Position numbers and translations under genes: made by a program. From a virus, in the IMG/VR virus record IMGVR_UViG_3300027969_000044, positions 32,001-96,000 of that record: a stretch of 64,000 bases of DNA; one strand, given 5' to 3'. This document shows positions 29,812 to 41,860 of this stretch, one piece after another; within the stretch, counting starts at the first letter, position 1; each line of letters begins with the position of its first letter. The notes beneath the pieces are model-generated. The model did no database searches. It worked only from the letters and a program-made list of their open reading frames with translations, and had not been told where the DNA came from.

Positions 29812-30176
29812 TAAACGGAATAACCCAACACGGAAAGTATATGTATATACATGGGGGCCATGCTGGTGGTCCTTATGTTAATATGAGTAATCCGTCTGCC
29901 GGTATGGTTCGATTTGACGGTGCTAACCTACAGGCATATGACGGCAATACTTGGATGACCATTGCCGGTTCAACGGCATCTGTTGGGATGAGTCCTGTTG
30001 CCGAGGAAGCAATTGACTGGGTCCGCCAGCAGATGGAAAAAGAAAAACAATTTTTTGACTTGGCAAAGACTTCTAAATCTGTTAGTATTGCATTAGAAAA
30101 CCTAAATAAAGCCAAAGCAGAACTAGAATTAATAGCCATCTTGGCGAAAGAGCACAATGAAGAAACCACCACTTAA
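29808..30176 (+). CDS. Hypothetical protein
   Basis: Overlapping start and stop with neighbours. Confidence 0.65.
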   Translation: MINGITQHGKYMYIHGGHAGGPYVNMSNPSAGMVRFDGANLQAYDGNTWMTIAGSTASVGMSPVAEEAIDWVRQQMEKEKQFFDLAKTSKSVSIALENLNKAKAELELIAILAKEHNEETTT

Positions 30177-31836
30177 CTTAACCCCACTACAGAAAGACTA
30201 CGCAGTATATCTACCTGCGATTAGTTCGTTCTACAGTACATATATTGCTAAACAACGTTTAGAAGAATTTGTTTCTAAAGATCGTATTCCTAAAGGATTT
30301 GATCGTGGCATCGAAGGCATGAATTTTTTAAATGAAGAAGAAGGATACTTTACATACAGATACGGCCTGTACTCTGCGGGTCACGCACAATTAGACTTAA
30401 ACAAAAGTATGGTACAGGAGTCTATGATCCAACAACGTGATCGCAGTAAGACTATGATCTTAGGCGACTCGGGCGGATACCAGATCGGTAAAGGTGTTCT
30501 TAAATTTGATTGGTTAGACTTTGAAGGTAAGAGTGCTAACAAGACTCGTCAAAATATTCTAGAGTGGTTAGAACTAACTGCTGATTGGTCAATGATGCTG
30601 GACGTTCCTACTTGGGCGTGTGATCACATTCATAGTCCAAAGACCGGACTAAAAACATTTGAAGACTGTTTAGAAAAAACACGTTTTAATAACGACTACT
30701 TCCTACAAAATAGATTAGGTCAAACTAAATGGCTTAATGTACTACAAGGTGGTGACTGGGATACTGCTGAAAAGTGGTACAACGGTGTTAAAGAATTTAG
30801 CGATCCAACTGGTCCATACGCAGGCAAAGAAGCCGAAGGATGGGCAATGGGGGGTGCTAATATGTGTAAGATGGATATTACGTTAAAGCGTCTAATGACA
30901 CTACGTGAAGACAACTTACTAAAAGGAAAAGACTGGATGCACTTTTTGGGTACTGCTCAACTAGACTGGTCTTGTTATCTAACTTTAATTCAACGTCAAA
31001 TTAGGAAGCATATCAATGAAAACTTTACCATCTCTTTTGATTGCGCCTCACCGTTTATCGCAACAGCGCACGGACTTGTCTACACAAACGCACAACACAC
31101 GAACAAAAGGTGGAGTGTTATTATGGACAAAGCCCCAGATAACAAATCATTGTCAGGACGTTCAGACATTCCATTCCCATTCGCAAGCGAAACAGGAAGT
31201 AGATTAACAATGGAAGATATTGCGTACTATGATATTGGTACACGCAAGACCGATGCCGAGTTAGGTACTAAGAAAGATAAAAACGGCAATGACGTTCAGA
31301 TTGAATTTGATCACTTGAAAAAAGAGCATTACAATATTGTCCCAAGACTTAACAAATTAGACAAGATTCCAAACAAAACATCTTGGGACAGTTTTGCCTA
31401 CGCTCTAATGATGGGCCATAACGTAGAATGCCATATTGTTGCTGTACAACGTGCTCAACAATTAATGGACATTGAGACTGTACGATTTAAACCTAATTGG
31501 AGAAGTTGGGGTATCGAGGGTAAGAAGGAAAAAGAATTTAGTGATTGGGTTCCCCGTAGAATCTTGTACTTTGCTACATTCATTGAAGAACTATTTGAAA
31601 CTAAGACAAAATCTGAAGCTTTTGAGTTAATCGATAGTGCTACTGTATTCTTACGTAGTTTAGAAGGTGCTCGTTTACAAGGCGGTCCTGCTCAAAACGA
31701 ATTTAATAATTTGTTTACAATTGAAGACAAGTCTATAGTAAGACTTGCGCCAGATGGCACGCCACTTTTCGATCAACAAGATGATCCAAGTTTACGTATA
31801 CTAGAGGAAAACATCCAAGATGCGAATGAGCCTTGA
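30157..31836 (+). CDS. dpdA: TGT-fold guanine transglycosylase, probably DNA-acting (DpdA-like)
   Basis: GDSGGYQ, MLDVP, NVLQG, GWAMGG, HFLG and SFD motifs in TGT order; clustered with folE and queE. Confidence 0.75.
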   Translation: MKKPPLNLTPLQKDYAVYLPAISSFYSTYIAKQRLEEFVSKDRIPKGFDRGIEGMNFLNEEEGYFTYRYGLYSAGHAQLDLNKSMVQESMIQQRDRSKTMILGDSGGYQIGKGVLKFDWLDFEGKSANKTRQNILEWLELTADWSMMLDVPTWACDHIHSPKTGLKTFEDCLEKTRFNNDYFLQNRLGQTKWLNVLQGGDWDTAEKWYNGVKEFSDPTGPYAGKEAEGWAMGGANMCKMDITLKRLMTLREDNLLKGKDWMHFLGTAQLDWSCYLTLIQRQIRKHINENFTISFDCASPFIATAHGLVYTNAQHTNKRWSVIMDKAPDNKSLSGRSDIPFPFASETGSRLTMEDIAYYDIGTRKTDAELGTKKDKNGNDVQIEFDHLKKEHYNIVPRLNKLDKIPNKTSWDSFAYALMMGHNVECHIVAVQRAQQLMDIETVRFKPNWRSWGIEGKKEKEFSDWVPRRILYFATFIEELFETKTKSEAFELIDSATVFLRSLEGARLQGGPAQNEFNNLFTIEDKSIVRLAPDGTPLFDQQDDPSLRILEENIQDANEP

Positions 31837-33594: not shown

Positions 33595-34692
33595 ATGAAA
33601 GTATTCCTCGTTGATCTCGAGGCAGTAGAGACTAGGTACACTGGTCAATGGAAGACTCATGTACCTGCTCTACTTAGAAAGAGAGGTTTTAATGTTCAAG
33701 TTATATCGGGTCCTAGCGATATTCCTAGCGCCACTACTCCTGGTGCCTTTCTCAATTTTGGGGGCACTAATATCTATAAGGCAAACCAAGTGGAACAGCT
33801 TGGAAGACTTTTTTGTTCAGGATCCGTCAAGGCTGGCGATCATTTTATTTTTACTGACGCTTGGCATCCGGGCATTATAAACTTAAAGTACATGAGTGAG
33901 TTGTTAGGTATTCCTATTACAACACACGGTCTTTGGCATGCCGGCAGTTATGATCCACAAGATTTCTTAGGACGTTTAGTTGGTAATAAGCCCTGGGTAA
34001 GGCACGCCGAAAAGAGTTTCTTCCACGCATTTGATCATAACTACTTTGCTACGCAATTCCATATTAAACTGTTCTATACTAATCTATTAAACGATTATCC
34101 TACAGAGAATCCGTGGTTTAGTGAACACCTTGATGAAATTCTAAAAGGTGAAGATCCTAGATTTGTGCGTACTGGTTGGCCTATGGAGTATATGCCAGAT
34201 ATGTTTACTATGTATAAGAACATGCCCAAGCGTGATCTTATACTGTTCCCTCATCGCATAGCGCCAGAGAAACAGGTTGAAATATTCCGTGACTTAGCTA
34301 CACATTTGCCGCAATATGAATTTGTTGTCTGTCAGGATCAACAGCTAACCAAGAACGAATATCATAATTTACTAGGCGAATCTAAACTAGTGTTTAGTGC
34401 TAACTTACAAGAAACATTAGGCATCAGTTGGTACGAAGGCGCATTAGTTGATGCTATTCCAATGGTTCCAGATCGTCTAAGCTATTCAGAAATGGCTTAT
34501 GATACATTTAAGTATCCTAGCGAGTGGACTGAAAGTTGGAATCATTATGTAGCAAATCGTAAAGAAATTTGTAATAAGATTATCCAGTATATGGAAAACT
34601 ATGACAAGTTCCTTCCTCAGTTACAAAAGCAGGCACAAGACCTAACTAAGTTATTCTTTAGTGCTAATAACCTTATACAAAATATAAAATGA
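33595..34692 (+). CDS. GT-B glycosyltransferase
   Basis: FPHRIAPEKQ and ETLGISWYEG (GT4-like E-x7-E) motifs in the C-terminal Rossmann domain. Confidence 0.8.
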   Translation: MKVFLVDLEAVETRYTGQWKTHVPALLRKRGFNVQVISGPSDIPSATTPGAFLNFGGTNIYKANQVEQLGRLFCSGSVKAGDHFIFTDAWHPGIINLKYMSELLGIPITTHGLWHAGSYDPQDFLGRLVGNKPWVRHAEKSFFHAFDHNYFATQFHIKLFYTNLLNDYPTENPWFSEHLDEILKGEDPRFVRTGWPMEYMPDMFTMYKNMPKRDLILFPHRIAPEKQVEIFRDLATHLPQYEFVVCQDQQLTKNEYHNLLGESKLVFSANLQETLGISWYEGALVDAIPMVPDRLSYSEMAYDTFKYPSEWTESWNHYVANRKEICNKIIQYMENYDKFLPQLQKQAQDLTKLFFSANNLIQNIK

Positions 34693-35501
34693 ATGATTCT
34701 TTTTACCCTCGAATAGGCATTGTTGGTTTAGGATTTGTAGGCGAAGCAATTCGTTCTTCTACTGAATTTGTACCAGACAACGTAGTATGCGTAGACTCAG
34801 ATGTACGTAAAGGATATGTTGGAACTTACGCAGACTTAATGACGTGTGAAGGCATCTTTATATGTGTGCCAAGTCCGATGGGTCCGGACGGGAAGTGCGA
34901 TACAAGCATTTTAGAAAATGTTTTAGAAAAGCTAAAAGACTTTCGAGGTGTTATTATTTCTAAAGTAACAGCACCTCCAGACATTTACCAACGCCTTAAC
35001 AAACAATATCCCAATCTAGTTCATGCTCCTGAATTTTTAACGGCGGCCAATGCCAGTAGAGATTATGCCAATGCTAAATGGTGTATCATTGGCGGCGATG
35101 TCCGTGCTTATAGAAACGAAGCCGAACGCATTATTAAGATGACACAACCTGGACTAGAAACTGTTAAATTTTGTAGTATTGGAGACGCCGCTCTAGCCAA
35201 ATATGCTATTAATAATTTCTTAGCTACCAAAGTGGTTTTTATGAATGAGCTGTATCAACTGGCTAATAAGACAGGATTAAATTATGATGTAGTGGCTAAT
35301 TTAATTAAACAAGATATACGCATCGGCGATAGTCATATGCGTGTTCCAGGAACAGACGGATCATTAGGATTTGGCGGATACTGCTTTCCTAAAGATACCG
35401 AAGCACTATTAAATTATGCAAAGCAATACGGTATTGACCTAAATGTAATATCATCAGCAGTACAGAAAAATTTGCTGTTGAGGTTGACTGAACCTAAATA
35501 A
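34689..35501 (+). CDS. UDP-glucose/GDP-mannose dehydrogenase-like protein lacking the C-terminal domain
   Basis: GLGFVG, ICVPSP, PEFL, KY..N.FLATKV.F.NE and GFGGYCFPKD motifs; 270 aa. Confidence 0.88.
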   Translation: MNDSFYPRIGIVGLGFVGEAIRSSTEFVPDNVVCVDSDVRKGYVGTYADLMTCEGIFICVPSPMGPDGKCDTSILENVLEKLKDFRGVIISKVTAPPDIYQRLNKQYPNLVHAPEFLTAANASRDYANAKWCIIGGDVRAYRNEAERIIKMTQPGLETVKFCSIGDAALAKYAINNFLATKVVFMNELYQLANKTGLNYDVVANLIKQDIRIGDSHMRVPGTDGSLGFGGYCFPKDTEALLNYAKQYGIDLNVISSAVQKNLLLRLTEPK

Positions 35502-35512
35502 TAGTATAAAAT
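35484..35512 (+). promoter_or_regulatory. Sigma70-type promoter TTGACT-N17-TAAAAT for folE
   Basis: -35 at 35484-35489, -10 at 35507-35512; a TAAATA also lies at 35495-35500. Confidence 0.65.
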
Positions 35513-35520
35513 AAACAAAT

Positions 35521-35546
35521 GGCAATCCACTGCCTTAACATCGGAG
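35521..35546 (+). ncRNA. Candidate miniature pseudoknot cis-regulator in the folE leader
   Basis: GGCA-ATCCAC-TGCC-TTAACATC-GGAG; loop TCC is complementary to GGA of the SD. Confidence 0.4.
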
Positions 35547-35556
35547 AATAAAAACA

Positions 35557-36321
35557 ATGACAGAATCATTAACATACAAAAATACACTTGCTGGCGCTGA
35601 ACAGCAAGATGATGACAACAAAGAATATAAAGAAGCATACTTGGGCGATCACATTCGCTTTAAAATGAAGCGTGAAGGCAAACGCTTTTGGGCGGGCGAT
35701 AACATTAGCGATTATTTGTACGAAGGCGATATAGAAAAACTAATCGACGAAGCAACACCAGCATTTGAAAAAGTGTTAGACTGTTTGCTGATTGATCGTG
35801 AAAACGATCCTAATAGTAAAGGTACAGCAAGACGTCTTGCTAAAATGTACTTTAATGAAATAATGGCAGGAAGATATGAACCAGGACCAGATGCAACAGC
35901 GTTTCCAAATGATTCGGCGGACCGTTACGAAGGTATGTTGGTTGTTCGCAGTGAGCTTCGCAGTATGTGTAGCCATCATCACCAACCCGTTAGTGGCGTT
36001 GCTTATATTGGTATTATTGCGGCTCAGAAACTCATCGGACTTAGCAAGTATACGAGGATCGCTCAGTGGTGTGCCCGTCGAGGTACTCTCCAGGAGGAAC
36101 TTTGTAATGACATTGCTAGGGAAATCAGCAGAGCAACAGAGTCAGAAAACGTAGCAGTCTATGTTCAAGCAGTACATGGGTGTTGCGAGAATCGTGGCAT
36201 TATGGCACATTCATCATTGACTCAGACTACAGTACTAAAAGGAACATTCAAAGATGATCCTCATACAAAGAAAGAGTTCTTTGACAACATTAAACTCCAA
36301 CAAGAGTTTGCTCCTCGATGA
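35557..36321 (+). CDS. folE: GTP cyclohydrolase I
   Basis: SMCSHH, GLSK..R, LQE and HGCCENRG motifs. Confidence 0.95.
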   Translation: MTESLTYKNTLAGAEQQDDDNKEYKEAYLGDHIRFKMKREGKRFWAGDNISDYLYEGDIEKLIDEATPAFEKVLDCLLIDRENDPNSKGTARRLAKMYFNEIMAGRYEPGPDATAFPNDSADRYEGMLVVRSELRSMCSHHHQPVSGVAYIGIIAAQKLIGLSKYTRIAQWCARRGTLQEELCNDIAREISRATESENVAVYVQAVHGCCENRGIMAHSSLTQTTVLKGTFKDDPHTKKEFFDNIKLQQEFAPR

Positions 36322-36431
36322 GATACATTACAAATAAATTTGAAAGTATCCGTTTACCAGTAGAAGCAGGGTTATTAGAATGGTTACAGGAAAACTACCC
36401 TGCTTCTAAATATTATATAAAGGAAATATAA
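36318..36431 (+). CDS. Small hypothetical protein (37 aa)
   Basis: MRYITNKFESIRLPVEAGLLEWLQENYPASKYYIKEI*; ATGA overlap with folE; fills the gap exactly. Confidence 0.55.
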   Translation: MRYITNKFESIRLPVEAGLLEWLQENYPASKYYIKEI

Positions 36432-36432
36432 A

Positions 36433-36624
36433 ATGACAAAACTAGCTAAACTGGCAAAAGTAAATGAGAATATCAGTGTCAATCGTTACGACAACGGTTG
36501 GATGGTAGAAATTGGTGGACGTGATGGTGAGAGTGATTGGAAAAATTGTAAAATTCTTTGTAACACAGAAGAAGAGATGATTTCTGTAATCAAAGAATGG
36601 AACACTAAAGATTTGGACAACTAA
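36433..36624 (+). CDS. Hypothetical protein
   Basis: SD AAGGA; 63 aa. Confidence 0.65.
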   Translation: MTKLAKLAKVNENISVNRYDNGWMVEIGGRDGESDWKNCKILCNTEEEMISVIKEWNTKDLDN

Positions 36625-39982: not shown

Positions 39983-40374
39983 CTAAAATATTTGAAGGAC
40001 CGGAACATATCGAGGATAGTGAAGCACCTTGGGATGACACAATGCGTGACGATTTTCATGTAACAGTTTTTTATGACAAGTATCCAGTAACAAACGGACA
40101 TCTATTGTTCGTGCCTAAATATAATACAGTAGGAGTATTGAATGAAGCTTTTCAAGATGCTTTTAGAGAAGGTAAGAAACAAGTCGACAACGGAAACTGG
40201 GACGGTTTCAACATTGGCTTTAACTATGGCGAAGCTGCAGGTCAAACTGTCAACTGGCCTCACATCCATCTTATTCCCCGTCATAAAGGCGATGTCGAAG
40301 ACCCAATTGGCGGCGTTAGAAACACAATCCCAGGCAAAGGCAACTATCGCTCGGCACACTATAAGCAAGATTAA
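39979..40374 (+). CDS. HIT-family hydrolase
   Basis: YPVTNGHLLFVPK and AGQTVNWPHIHLIPR (the first triad His is replaced by W). Confidence 0.88.
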   Translation: MTKIFEGPEHIEDSEAPWDDTMRDDFHVTVFYDKYPVTNGHLLFVPKYNTVGVLNEAFQDAFREGKKQVDNGNWDGFNIGFNYGEAAGQTVNWPHIHLIPRHKGDVEDPIGGVRNTIPGKGNYRSAHYKQD

Positions 40375-40816: not shown

Positions 40817-41016
40817 AACAATTTACAGTTAAAGAAACCGAAGGTTTTCGTCTTCGTGTTAAAAGTTGGAAATGCGTTAACCCAGCAGATTTAAATTCTA
40901 TTGAGTTTATTCAAGAAACATTGACAGATGGAAAAGTAAGTGGCAGTTCTGTTTATAACTTTTTCATGACAGATGTAGAAGTCAAAGAACTAGCCGCAGG
41001 ACTTGTAAATGAGTAA
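40813..41016 (+). CDS. Hypothetical protein
   Basis: SD AAGGA; 67 aa. Confidence 0.65.
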   Translation: MKQFTVKETEGFRLRVKSWKCVNPADLNSIEFIQETLTDGKVSGSSVYNFFMTDVEVKELAAGLVNE

Positions 41017-41860
41017 GATTAAAATAGCAGAACTATTTTATAGCATTCAAGGTGAAGGACGCTTTATGGGCGTCCCATCTGTGTTTCTGCGTACATTTGG
41101 CTGTAACTTTACTTGTCAAGGTTTTGGCATGCCGCTTGGTGAACTAAGCAAAGAAGCAGAATTTGTTGACCCTACAAAATATAAAACATATAATGAACTT
41201 CCGCTCGTTAGTACTGGTTGCGATAGTTATGCTTCTTGGGATCCACGTTTTAAAGACCTTAGTCCTATGCTCACTACAGACGCAATCGCAGACAGAATTA
41301 TGGAGATATTGCCCTTCAATGAATGGCAGGACGAGCATCTAGTTATTACAGGCGGTGAGCCGTTACTAGGTTGGCAAAAAGCATATCCAGCATTGTTAGA
41401 TAATCCTAAAATGAAAGGGTTAAAAGAAATTACGTTTGAAACAAATGGTTCAATGCGTTTGACTAAAGATTTTAGACAATATCTACTAAACTGGTCATTA
41501 GGTAATAAAGAAAGAGGACGCAACGCCCTTACATTTAGTGTAAGCGCAAAACTTCCGTGTTCTGGAGAACCGTGGAAAGATGCTATTAAGCCAGAAGTAG
41601 TTTGTGCTTACGAAGAAGTTGGGTACACCTATTTGAAGTTTGTAGTTTCTACAGAACAAGATATTGAAGATGCGCTAAAAGCTACAGACGAATTTCGAAA
41701 AGGCGGGTTTAAAGGCCCTGTTTATCTAATGCCAGTTGGCGGAGTTGAGTCAGTATATGCTTTAAATAATAAAGCAGTAGCAGTGGCCGCAATGAAACAC
41801 GGACTTAGATATAGTGATAGATTACAGGTGCCGTTATTTAAAAACGAGTGGGGAACTTGA
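41009..41860 (+). CDS. queE: 7-carboxy-7-deazaguanine synthase (radical SAM)
   Basis: ELFYSIQGEG...G.PSVFLR..GCN..C, CDS, ITGGEPLL, ETNG, VSAKL and RLQV motifs. Confidence 0.9.
   Translation: MSKIKIAELFYSIQGEGRFMGVPSVFLRTFGCNFTCQGFGMPLGELSKEAEFVDPTKYKTYNELPLVSTGCDSYASWDPRFKDLSPMLTTDAIADRIMEILPFNEWQDEHLVITGGEPLLGWQKAYPALLDNPKMKGLKEITFETNGSMRLTKDFRQYLLNWSLGNKERGRNALTFSVSAKLPCSGEPWKDAIKPEVVCAYEEVGYTYLKFVVSTEQDIEDALKATDEFRKGGFKGPVYLMPVGGVESVYALNNKAVAVAAMKHGLRYSDRLQVPLFKNEWGT

What the first reader, a model, noticed from the sequence alone, without database searches (positions are those of the whole stretch)
35484..35559. Miniature preQ1-I-like pseudoknot filling the folE 5' leader: candidate phage riboswitch
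Seen: the promoter TTGACT-N17-TAAAAT puts the start site near 35518-35519. The leader then reads GGCA-AUCCAC-UGCC-UUAACAUC-GGAG-A-rich-AUG: a 4-bp stem, a 6-nt loop whose UCC can pair with GGA of the SD, a loop ending in C next to the stem, and a UUAACA linker. Established: preQ1-I riboswitches are small H-type pseudoknots in which a loop C pairs with the guanine-like ligand and P2 sequesters the SD. Inference: this may be an even smaller sensor for a guanine or deazaguanine compound that feedback-controls the first committed enzyme of the pathway. The helices are short, so chance occurrence cannot be excluded from one sequence.
Basis: partly seen in the sequence, partly recalled or inferred. 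Interest (0 to 1): 0.75.

Follow-up and report, generated by a model that had tools for sequence, protein, structure and literature searches.

The report
Conserved mini-pseudoknot leader on phage folE
The ~26-base leader of this giant aquatic phage's GTP cyclohydrolase gene (folE) is a real RNA pseudoknot, kept with compensating base changes in front of folE in hundreds of uncultured phages; it ties up the ribosome-binding site and is a good but untested candidate for the smallest known riboswitch.

Summary
One sequence alone is not better than chance (fold z = -1.0). Comparison settles the structure.

- **Distribution.** The motif lies once per genome, always just 5' of folE. It is present in 151 of 240 folE loci sampled without regard to the leader. 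It accompanies two FolE clades only 40% identical.
- **P1.** The stem is 100% paired in 65 distinct sequences. All three inner pairs change on both sides (covariation 0.40 against 0.07 in shuffles, 0 of 500).
- **P2 (loop with SD).** Loops AUCC go with GGAG (112 of 112). Loops ACCC go with GGGAG, tested in both directions. SD AGGAA goes mostly with xCCU loops, a shift of register.
- **Loop C.** The unpaired C next to the P1 3' strand is essentially invariant.
- **Absence from bacteria.** A scan of 185,579 species' genomes with the GGCA-stem form gave one true hit, on a phage-like contig.

The element has no Rfam match and I found no paper on it. It fails several defining features of preQ1-I, so it works like a preQ1-I riboswitch but is not a member.

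The motif-bearing phages carry FolE and a QueE-like gene, and this genome also has a QueD-like gene. None has a detectable QueC. Ligand sensing is inferred, not shown (about 45%).

This scan found the same motif before on other phage DNA (e1-5610790, e1-5366884, e1-5363296, e1-5610776).

The parts
35484..35512 (+). Sigma-70-type promoter TTGACT-N17-TAAAAT. Its spacer holds CCTAAATA (35493-35500), which is conserved in front of folE in related phages.
   Evidence: sequence. (10 of 12 match). (same TTGACA..CCTAAATA..TATAAT layout in most related folE loci). (in the 166-kb genome the full layout is clear only here, with a looser second site before the QueE region).
35521..35524 (+). P1 5' strand (GGCA). 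The predicted transcript start is 1-2 nt upstream (about 35519-35520).
   Evidence: the inner 3 pairs are 100% paired in 65 distinct sequences, all three with changes on both sides. The outer pair is seen as A-U, U-A, C-G, G-C and U.G.
35525..35525 (+). L1 (A). It is 1 nt long here and 3-4 variable nt in the AGGAA subtype.
35526..35528 (+). P2 5' strand (UCC), complementary to GGA of the SD.
   Evidence: AUCC loops: 112 of 112 with GGAG. (ACCC loops and GGGAG go together, tested in both directions). (xCCU loops with AGGAA).
35529..35530 (+). L2. A35529 is variable (A, U or C; once G). C35530 is essentially invariant, unpaired and directly 5' of the P1 3' strand. This is the position of the specificity cytosine in preQ1-I.
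   Evidence: The position of the specificity base in preQ1-I is from PMC11625349 and PMC10622847.
35531..35534 (+). P1 3' strand (UGCC).
35535..35542 (+). L3 linker UUAACAUC. This is the 8-nt form that always accompanies an A-U closing pair. The form ending in CUC accompanies C-G or G-C closing pairs.
   Evidence: 23 against 44 distinct sequences, perfect association, both forms present in both FolE clades.
35543..35546 (+). Shine-Dalgarno GGAG. GGA (35543-35545) is the P2 3' strand.
35557..36321 (+). folE (GTP cyclohydrolase I, 254 aa), the regulated gene.
   Evidence: PF01227, 9.8e-39. (phrog_2197). (NCBIfam FolE models, below their cut-offs).

Best explanation
**Shown by comparison.** Window 35521-35546 encodes a compact H-type RNA pseudoknot at or near the 5' end of the folE mRNA.
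- P1 is a 4-bp hairpin (GGCA/UGCC).
- Three loop bases (UCC) pair with GGA of the Shine-Dalgarno sequence to form P2.
- One conserved cytosine stays unpaired, directly 5' of the P1 3' strand.
- A conserved UAAC(A)UC strand (L3) runs back along P1.

**Inferred.**
- P2 on its own is marginal, so the ribosome site is free unless something stabilises the knot.
- The most likely stabiliser is a small molecule with a guanine-like face made downstream of FolE. Candidates are 7-carboxy-7-deazaguanine, 7-deazaguanine, preQ0 or a pterin intermediate.
- The ligand would be read by the invariant C, stacked between P1 and P2 as in preQ1-I riboswitches.
- Binding would close P2, hide the SD and shut off translation of the first enzyme of the pathway. 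This is product feedback, a translational OFF switch.

The element works like a miniature preQ1-I (type III) riboswitch but is not a member of that family.
For: 1. **Specific to folE, one copy per genome.** Seen, and in two 100%-complete genomes. The only extra hit is antisense inside an epimerase ORF.
2. **Pattern scans find it only at folE.** Scans that fix only parts of the motif return hairpin-bearing hits only in front of folE homologues of 40-95% identity. Random hits have no hairpin.
3. **P1 covaries**. Covariation score is 0.400 against 0.073 in shuffles (0 of 500) and at most 0.024 with slid partners. Stems seen: GGCA/UGCC, CGCA/UGCG, CCCA/UGGG, UGUC/GACA, UGAC/GUCA, AGAC/GUCU, GGAC/GUCC, GGUC/GACC, AGGG/CCCU, GGUG/CACC.
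4. **P2 covaries.**
   - With P1 and linker fixed, AUCC loops have GGAG 112 of 112 times.
   - With loop ACCCNC fixed, 3 of 3 have GGGAG. With GGGAG fixed, all true instances (about 28) have ACCC[U/A]C.
   - With SD AUAGGAA, 7 of 10 distinct loops lose the U before CC and carry CCU, so CCU pairs with AGG. Their L1 varies in length and sequence. The other 3 keep UCC, which pairs with GGA (counts).
5. **Invariant C.** The loop-final C does not vary across these sets.
6. **Energetics**. P1 is -2.9 to -5.2 kcal/mol. A 3-bp P2 is only -0.8 to -2.5. Nested folding leaves the SD mostly unpaired. This fits a switch rather than a fixed block.
7. **Architecture matches published preQ1-I features**: an H-type knot, GGA of the SD in P2, a pyrimidine-rich short loop, and a specificity C preceded by A or U just before the P1 3' strand.
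8. **Pathway context.** There are QueE-like and QueD-like genes. A QueE homologue is present in 10 of 10 motif-bearing large contigs.
9. **Not tied to one FolE sequence.** The motif occurs with two FolE clades 40% identical, and also in front of an unrelated ORF inserted before folE. This argues against a co-evolving FolE-RNA pair.
Against: - No ligand binding, structure probing or expression data exist.
- At about 26 nt it would be smaller than any known natural aptamer.
- It lacks the A-rich L3 tract, the conserved G-C closing pair and the L1 uridine that contact the ligand in preQ1-I.
- It has no Rfam hit.
- About a third of related folE genes do without it and have a short plain leader. 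It is therefore dispensable.
- The two P2 variant classes may each be a single evolutionary event.
- The conserved promoter spacer hints that a dedicated protein regulator may exist for this gene.
- Rare sequences break P2: L460 has loop ACACAC, and L283 has AUCCAU with SD AGAGAG.
Confidence: 0.45

Rival explanations
1. Protein-dependent translational operator. The same pseudoknot is real, but a phage-encoded (or host) RNA-binding protein recognises the loop and linker and stabilises it. This would resemble ribosomal protein S15 on the rpsO pseudoknot or T4 gp32 on its own leader.
For: - The element appears restricted to phages. The genome-contig scan of the GGCA-stem form gave one true hit, on a phage-like 335-kb contig. 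This fits a phage-encoded partner.
- Loop and linker bases are strongly conserved.
- The folE promoter has an unusually conserved spacer, which suggests dedicated regulation of this gene.
- Small hairpin and pseudoknot operators bound by proteins are well established (general knowledge).
Against: - No candidate protein was identified.
- The motif serves two FolE clades only 40% identical and an unrelated inserted ORF. FolE autoregulation would therefore need a very conserved surface.
- L1 varies freely in length and sequence in the AGGAA subtype, while only the P2 bases and the terminal C stay fixed. That pattern fits a knot better than a protein-read loop.
- The layout parallels a known ligand-binding fold.
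Confidence: 0.2
2. Ligand-independent element. The hairpin at the 5' end protects the mRNA, and the weak loop-SD pairing merely tunes folE translation to a fixed low level (or makes it depend on temperature or ions), with no specific effector.
For: - In the window and many relatives the hairpin starts 1-10 nt after the predicted transcript start.
- 5'-terminal hairpins stabilise bacterial mRNAs (general knowledge).
- The helices are short.
- Relatives without the motif show that regulation is not essential.
Against: - A stabiliser hairpin needs no invariant loop, no invariant unpaired C and no conserved linker.
- Simple attenuation would be expected to select any anti-SD. Instead a fixed 3-bp pairing is kept through two kinds of compensatory change.
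- In several relatives 20-30 extra nt precede the hairpin, so it is not always 5'-terminal.
- The closing pair and the form of L3 covary, which suggests a defined tertiary fold.
Confidence: 0.25
3. Chance hairpin next to an ordinary SD, or a DNA-level palindrome or terminator.
For: - The single-sequence fold is not significant (z = -1.03).
- The consensus scan flags the reverse strand of the hairpin as terminator-like.
Against: - There are hundreds of conserved, covarying instances always in front of folE.
- No minus-strand gene ends here.
- The stem covaries instead of keeping fixed half-sites.
- The loop pairs with the SD, which only makes sense in the mRNA.
Confidence: 0.02

Closest known systems
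preQ1-I riboswitch, type III (E. coli / Shigella yhhQ leader; PDB 8FZA; Rfam RF00522; PMC10622847, PMC11625349)
   Same: - H-type pseudoknot with a short pyrimidine-rich loop.
- P2 is made with GGA of the Shine-Dalgarno sequence.
- A conserved cytosine preceded by A or U lies directly 5' of the P1 3' strand.
- The aptamer and the expression platform are one unit.
- It is a translational OFF design on a 7-deazaguanine-related gene.
   Different: - P1 is 4 bp rather than 5, and the loop is 6 nt.
- L1 is A, not UU.
- There is no conserved G-C closing pair (C-G, A-U or G-C are seen).
- L3 is UAAC(A)UC, not a poly-A tract.
- There is no RF00522 hit even at E <= 10 in 71 nt.
- It is found in phages in front of folE, not in gamma-proteobacteria in front of yhhQ.
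- The ligand is unknown. The phages lack QueC, so preQ1 and preQ0 are unlikely products.
preQ1-I type II (Thermoanaerobacter tengcongensis and Bacillus subtilis queC leaders)
   Same: - AC precedes the P1 3' strand.
- L3 begins UUAAC, as in the Tte aptamer (sequence recalled from memory, not checked here).
- The SD is partly buried in P2.
   Different: - The known aptamers are 33-34 nt, with a longer L2 and an A-rich L3.
- Their ligand contacts from U6 and A29 have no clear equivalents here.
THF-II riboswitch (folE motif; PMC9881143, PMC11317127)
   Same: - It lies in the folE 5' leader.
- It controls translation.
- It reads a ligand with a guanine- or pterin-like face through pyrimidines.
   Different: - THF-II is a longer rod-like hairpin with internal loops, found in Gram-negative bacteria.
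- There is no Rfam match here, and this element is a pseudoknot.
Protein-stabilised RBS pseudoknots (E. coli rpsO/S15; T4 gene 32 leader)
   Same: A pseudoknot at the ribosome-binding region controls translation initiation.
   Different: - Those are larger and need a specific protein.
- No protein partner is known here.

Membership tests
preQ1-I riboswitch (Rfam RF00522) | Scores at or above the family's covariance-model threshold (39 bits) | tested here: not met
   No PreQ1 hit at E <= 10 in 2 kb or in a 71-nt search of the leader alone.
preQ1-I riboswitch (Rfam RF00522) | H-type pseudoknot whose P2 includes part of the SD | tested here: met
   P1 covariation. P2 covariation: AUCC with GGAG, ACCC with GGGAG, xCCU with AGGAA.
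preQ1-I riboswitch (Rfam RF00522) | Conserved unpaired specificity cytosine, preceded by A or U, directly 5' of the P1 3' strand | tested here: met
   The loop ends in (A/U/C)C in essentially all instances. The feature definition is from PMC11625349 and PMC10622847. Whether the C reads a ligand is not tested.
preQ1-I riboswitch (Rfam RF00522) | A-rich L3 (4-6 adenines) docking in the P1 minor groove | tested here: not met
   L3 is (U/A/C)(U/A)AAC(A)UC with only 2-3 adenines.
preQ1-I riboswitch (Rfam RF00522) | Conserved G-C closing pair of P1 (G5) that contacts the aminomethyl group, and a conserved L1 uridine | tested here: not met
   The closing pair is C-G, A-U or G-C. L1 is A, or 3-4 variable nt.
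preQ1-I riboswitch (Rfam RF00522) | Binds preQ1 or preQ0 | not testable with these tools
   Needs in-line probing, ITC or a similar assay.
preQ1-I riboswitch (Rfam RF00522) | Association with queuosine or 7-deazaguanine genes | tested here: met
   Always 5' of folE. QueE-like and QueD-like genes are in the same genomes.
THF-II riboswitch (folE motif) | Match to the Rfam model; long hairpin with conserved internal loops | tested here: not met
   No hit. The structure here is a 4-bp hairpin plus a pseudoknot.
Protein-dependent pseudoknot operators (S15 rpsO, T4 gene 32) | A specific regulatory protein binds and stabilises the RNA | not testable with these tools
   No candidate partner identified. 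No co-occurrence analysis was done.

The most novel reading that the evidence does not exclude
A phage-specific riboswitch class and the smallest natural aptamer known (about 26 nt: 4-bp P1, 3-bp P2 and one reading cytosine). It would sense a QueC-independent 7-deazaguanine product (CDG or 7-deazaguanine) or a pterin intermediate rather than preQ1. It would shut off translation of folE in a large fraction of aquatic giant and T4-like phages.
Probability: 0.4. Interest if true: 0.88.

Novelty: new variant of a known kind. Interest (0 to 1): 0.75.

Why it matters
- **Minimum aptamer size.** If it binds a metabolite, this element would lower the known minimum size of a natural aptamer. It would show how far the preQ1-I architecture can be stripped down.
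- **Riboswitches in phages.** Riboswitches are rarely reported in phages. This one would be an abundant class that appears restricted to phages.
- **Handle on the pathway.** It would offer a way to identify the still unknown modified-guanine product of a widespread QueC-less phage pathway, because the ligand of the RNA should be a pathway metabolite.
- **Use as a part.** A 26-nt translational switch would also be an attractive synthetic-biology part.
- **Value without a ligand.** Even so, a pseudoknot this small with covariation in both helices is a clean model for minimal RNA tertiary folds.

Tried and rejected
- **Rfam.** cmscan at E <= 10 on 34500-36500 and on the leader alone gave no relevant hit.
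- **Close cultivated relatives.** blastn against 50,697 phage records found only a partial folE match.
- **Cultivated phages with related FolE.** Phosso, Vibrio 2.275.O, RHph_I1_18, NCTB, GR11A and phiST do not carry the mini-motif.
- **Vibrio phage 2.275.O.** It has only a sub-threshold PreQ1-like leader (12.5 bits against a threshold of 39).
- **Flavobacterium phage immuto.** Its leader looks preQ1-I-like by eye but gave no Rfam hit.
- **Second copy in G011.** The 18.9-bit hit is antisense inside an epimerase ORF, so it is chance.
- **Terminator reading.** The stem is too weak, no U-run follows it on the + strand, and no minus-strand gene ends here.
- **DpdA identity of ORF 30157-31836.** There was no Pfam, PHROG, NCBIfam, PADLOC or PDB-sequence hit. 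The only support is a weak Atlas lead to clusters partly carrying TGT.
- **Inserted ORF before folE in L163 and L203.** No family was found.
- **Literature.** Searches found no description of this motif. One preprint could not be opened.
- **Two of my scripts.** They failed on indexing and were rewritten.
Full report
**What is in the window**

The window is bases 32001-96000 of a 166-kb, roughly 46%-complete viral record. ORF 35557-36321 is GTP cyclohydrolase I (PF01227, E 9.8e-39; phrog_2197).

Upstream, one search shows these elements in order:

| Element | Coordinates |
|---|---|
| TTGACT (-35) | 35484-35489 |
| spacer, 17 nt, containing CCTAAATA | 35490-35506 |
| TAAAAT (-10) | 35507-35512 |
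| GGCA | 35521-35524 |
| AUCCAC | 35525-35530 |
| UGCC | 35531-35534 |
| UUAACAUC | 35535-35542 |
| GGAG | 35543-35546 |
| spacer, 10 nt | 35547-35556 |
| AUG | 35557-35559 |

The promoter scan scores the promoter 10 of 12.

RNAfold recovers the 4-bp hairpin. The fold of the single sequence is not significant: z = -1.03, and 30 of 200 shuffles fold as well.

**Is it more than chance? Comparison**

A FolE-based search of viral contigs gave more than 597 relatives, of which 80 loci were kept. In most of them the same layout sits directly before folE: stem, AUCC(A/U)C loop, stem, UAAC(A)UC, GGAGAA, then an ATG or TTG start.

A covariance model built from 30 distinct copies (A1, R1) gave these results:
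- It finds the element once in the window's own genome (36.9 bits, E 4e-9). The next hit has E 0.5.
- It finds one copy per locus in 56 of 80 loci.
- Two further FolE-seeded samples gave 34 of 80 and 61 of 80 (and 61/103). One used a FolE only 40% identical.
- In five large contigs, two of them 100% complete, there is one true copy each. The one extra hit is antisense inside an epimerase gene.

Pattern scans that fix only part of the motif point the same way:
- Every hit that has the hairpin lies before a folE homologue (40-95% identity). Hits without a hairpin are scattered in GC-rich coding DNA.
- A scan of 185,579 species' genomes for the GGCA-stem form gave 13 hits. Only one is real. It lies on a 335-kb contig with the phage-type promoter and folE, binned into a Neomarinimicrobiota MAG.

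On this evidence the element looks restricted to phages. Only the GGCA-stem form was scanned in bacterial genomes.

**P1**

On the model-made alignment A2 (66 sequences, 65 distinct):
- The three inner pairs are 100% paired and all three change on both sides.
- 66 cells carry double changes, against 19.9 in shuffles.
- The covariation score is 0.400 against 0.073 (0 of 500 shuffles). Slid controls give at most 0.024.
- The outer, fourth pair appears as A-U, U-A, C-G, G-C and U.G, with some mismatches.

**P2, the loop-SD helix**

In the GGAG type both sides are invariant, which by itself says nothing. Three tests that left one side free are informative:

1. With P1 and the linker fixed and the loop and SD free, 112 of 120 hits have AUCC(A/U/C)C plus GGAG. 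The other 8 are random and have neither.
2. With loop ACCCNC fixed, 3 of 3 have GGGAG. With GGGAG fixed in the metagenome collection, all true instances (about 28, roughly 18 distinct) have ACCC(U/A)C and none has AUCC. This is a U-A to C-G exchange.
3. With the SD form AUAGGAA fixed, most loops lose the U before CC and carry CCU instead. Examples are AUACCUC, AUGACCUC, ACACCCUC, ACUACCUC, AUAACCUC and ACGACCUC, plus AUACCUAC in L470.
   - The helix thus shifts register to CCU:AGG.
   - The stretch before it (L1) varies in length and sequence.
   - Three loops keep UCC, which still pairs with GGA.

Each variant class may be one evolutionary event. Both preserve a 3-bp helix, however, and both have since diversified.

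The loop-final C, directly 5' of the P1 3' strand, stays constant throughout. The base before it varies (A, U or C; once G).

A further coupling was seen:
- An A-U closing pair always comes with an L3 ending CAU(C/A) (23 distinct sequences).
- C-G or G-C closing pairs come with an L3 ending CUC (44 distinct sequences).
- Both forms occur with both FolE clades.
- This suggests a defined tertiary fold.

Rare exceptions look like decay:
- L460 has loop ACACAC.
- L283 has loop AUCCAU with SD AGAGAG.
- L493 and L325 are truncated.

**Energetics**

From:
- P1 is worth -2.9 to -5.2 kcal/mol.
- A 3-bp P2 duplex is worth only -0.8 to -2.5 kcal/mol.
- In nested folding the SD is mostly unpaired (pair probability 0.12-0.38).

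P2 should therefore need help to form. That fits a switch better than a permanent block. This step is inference.

**Context**

- The window has a QueE-like radical SAM gene at 41009-41860 (phrog_2076, 2.8e-52; weak NCBIfam QueE hits).
- It also has a PRTase, cupins and HldE-like genes.
- A PTPS/QueD-like gene lies at G000:8418-8831.
- QueC and Pfam TGT are absent from this genome and from 20 related large contigs, including three that are 96-100% complete.
- A QueE homologue is present in 10 of 10 motif-bearing large contigs.
- The pathway therefore probably ends at CDG or a derivative. Published phage systems without QueC make dCDG or dDG (bioRxiv 10.1101/2023.04.13.536721).
- ORF 30157-31836, which first readers called TGT-fold, has no family or PDB-sequence hit. 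There is only a weak Atlas lead: a cluster with TGT on 22% of members, score 0.93.

**Comparison with known systems**

Published preQ1-I features are given in PMC11625349 and PMC10622847:
- an H-type pseudoknot;
- a specificity C preceded by A or U just before the P1 3' strand;
- an A-rich L3 in the P1 minor groove;
- a conserved G5 closing pair;
- an L1 uridine;
- in type III, a short pyrimidine-rich loop and P2 made with GGA of the SD.

The phage element shares the knot, the GGA pairing, the short pyrimidine loop and the C. It lacks the poly-A tract, the G5 pair and the L1 uridine, and RF00522 does not detect it. It works like preQ1-I type III but is not a member. THF-II, the other folE-leader riboswitch, is unrelated in structure.

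Two cultivated phages have preQ1-I-like sequences at the same place. Both are leads only:
- Vibrio phage 2.275.O scores 12.5 bits, sub-threshold.
- Flavobacterium phage immuto resembles preQ1-I by eye but has no Rfam hit.

I found no paper describing the mini-motif.

Earlier follow-ups in this scan reached the same structural conclusion on other phage genomes.

**Verdict**

| Explanation | Estimate |
|---|---|
| Metabolite sensor | about 45% |
| Ligand-independent tuner or mRNA stabiliser | about 25% |
| Protein-stabilised operator | about 20% |

What matters next is bench work: binding assays with CDG, 7-deazaguanine, preQ0 and pterins, and P2 and loop-C mutants in reporter fusions.

Noticed in passing
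window 35484-35512; also 40105-40135; related loci L433-L511: The folE promoter keeps not only its -35 and -10 but also its spacer (TTGACA-AAAA-CCTAAATA-N5-8-TATAAT) across most related phages, with or without the pseudoknot. In the 166-kb genome the full layout is clear only at folE, with a looser copy just upstream of the ORF before the QueE-like gene. This could be a dedicated regulator site or a mobile promoter-leader-folE cassette.
   Followed up: partly
L484, L487, L463, L434, L448, L477 (about 20-60 nt upstream of the hairpin): In some relatives a 10-11-bp inverted repeat spans the -10 box and the first transcribed bases. Its sequence differs between loci but stays complementary. Its function is unknown.
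   Followed up: no
L163:548-937, L170, L203:1479-1877: A 129-132-aa ORF of no known family is inserted exactly between the pseudoknot leader and folE. Its stop overlaps the folE start (TAATG). Here the leader's SD therefore serves the inserted ORF, and folE is probably translationally coupled to it.
   Followed up: partly
L294:2268-2298 (Vibrio phage 2.275.O, MG592671): The folE leader of this cultivated jumbo phage, which also encodes QueF, a QueC-like protein and a YhhQ-type transporter, aligns to Rfam PreQ1 over P1, the UCCC motif and the AAAAAACUA tail. It scores only 12.5 bits against a threshold of 39.
   Followed up: partly
[quoted passage not shown]: The folE leader reads GGAG-UCGUAGAAC-CUCC-AUAAAAAC, which resembles a type II preQ1-I aptamer by eye. 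cmscan gave no PreQ1 hit.
   Followed up: partly
L430 (PBPT01000016.1, 335-kb contig of a Candidatus Neomarinimicrobiota MAG): The contig carries the phage-type CCTAAATA promoter, the mini-pseudoknot and a phage-like folE (64% identity). It is probably a giant-phage contig binned into a bacterial MAG.
   Followed up: no
window 36360-36430: A strong hairpin (GUAGAAGCAGGG...CCCUGCUUCUAAAU) follows folE and precedes the next ORF's SD. It is probably a terminator or processing hairpin. Only weak, sub-threshold Rfam hits were found (cow-rumen-4, DUF2815).
   Followed up: no
window 30157-31836: This 559-aa ORF was called TGT-fold (DpdA-like) by first readers. No Pfam, PHROG, NCBIfam, PADLOC or PDB-sequence match was found. 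The Atlas nearest named cluster carries TGT on 22% of its members. Its identity is still open.
   Followed up: partly
L460, L283, L493, L325: These look like decayed copies of the leader: loop ACACAC (L460), loop AUCCAU with SD AGAGAG (L283), linker deleted (L493), SD lost with a shortened folE (L325).
   Followed up: no
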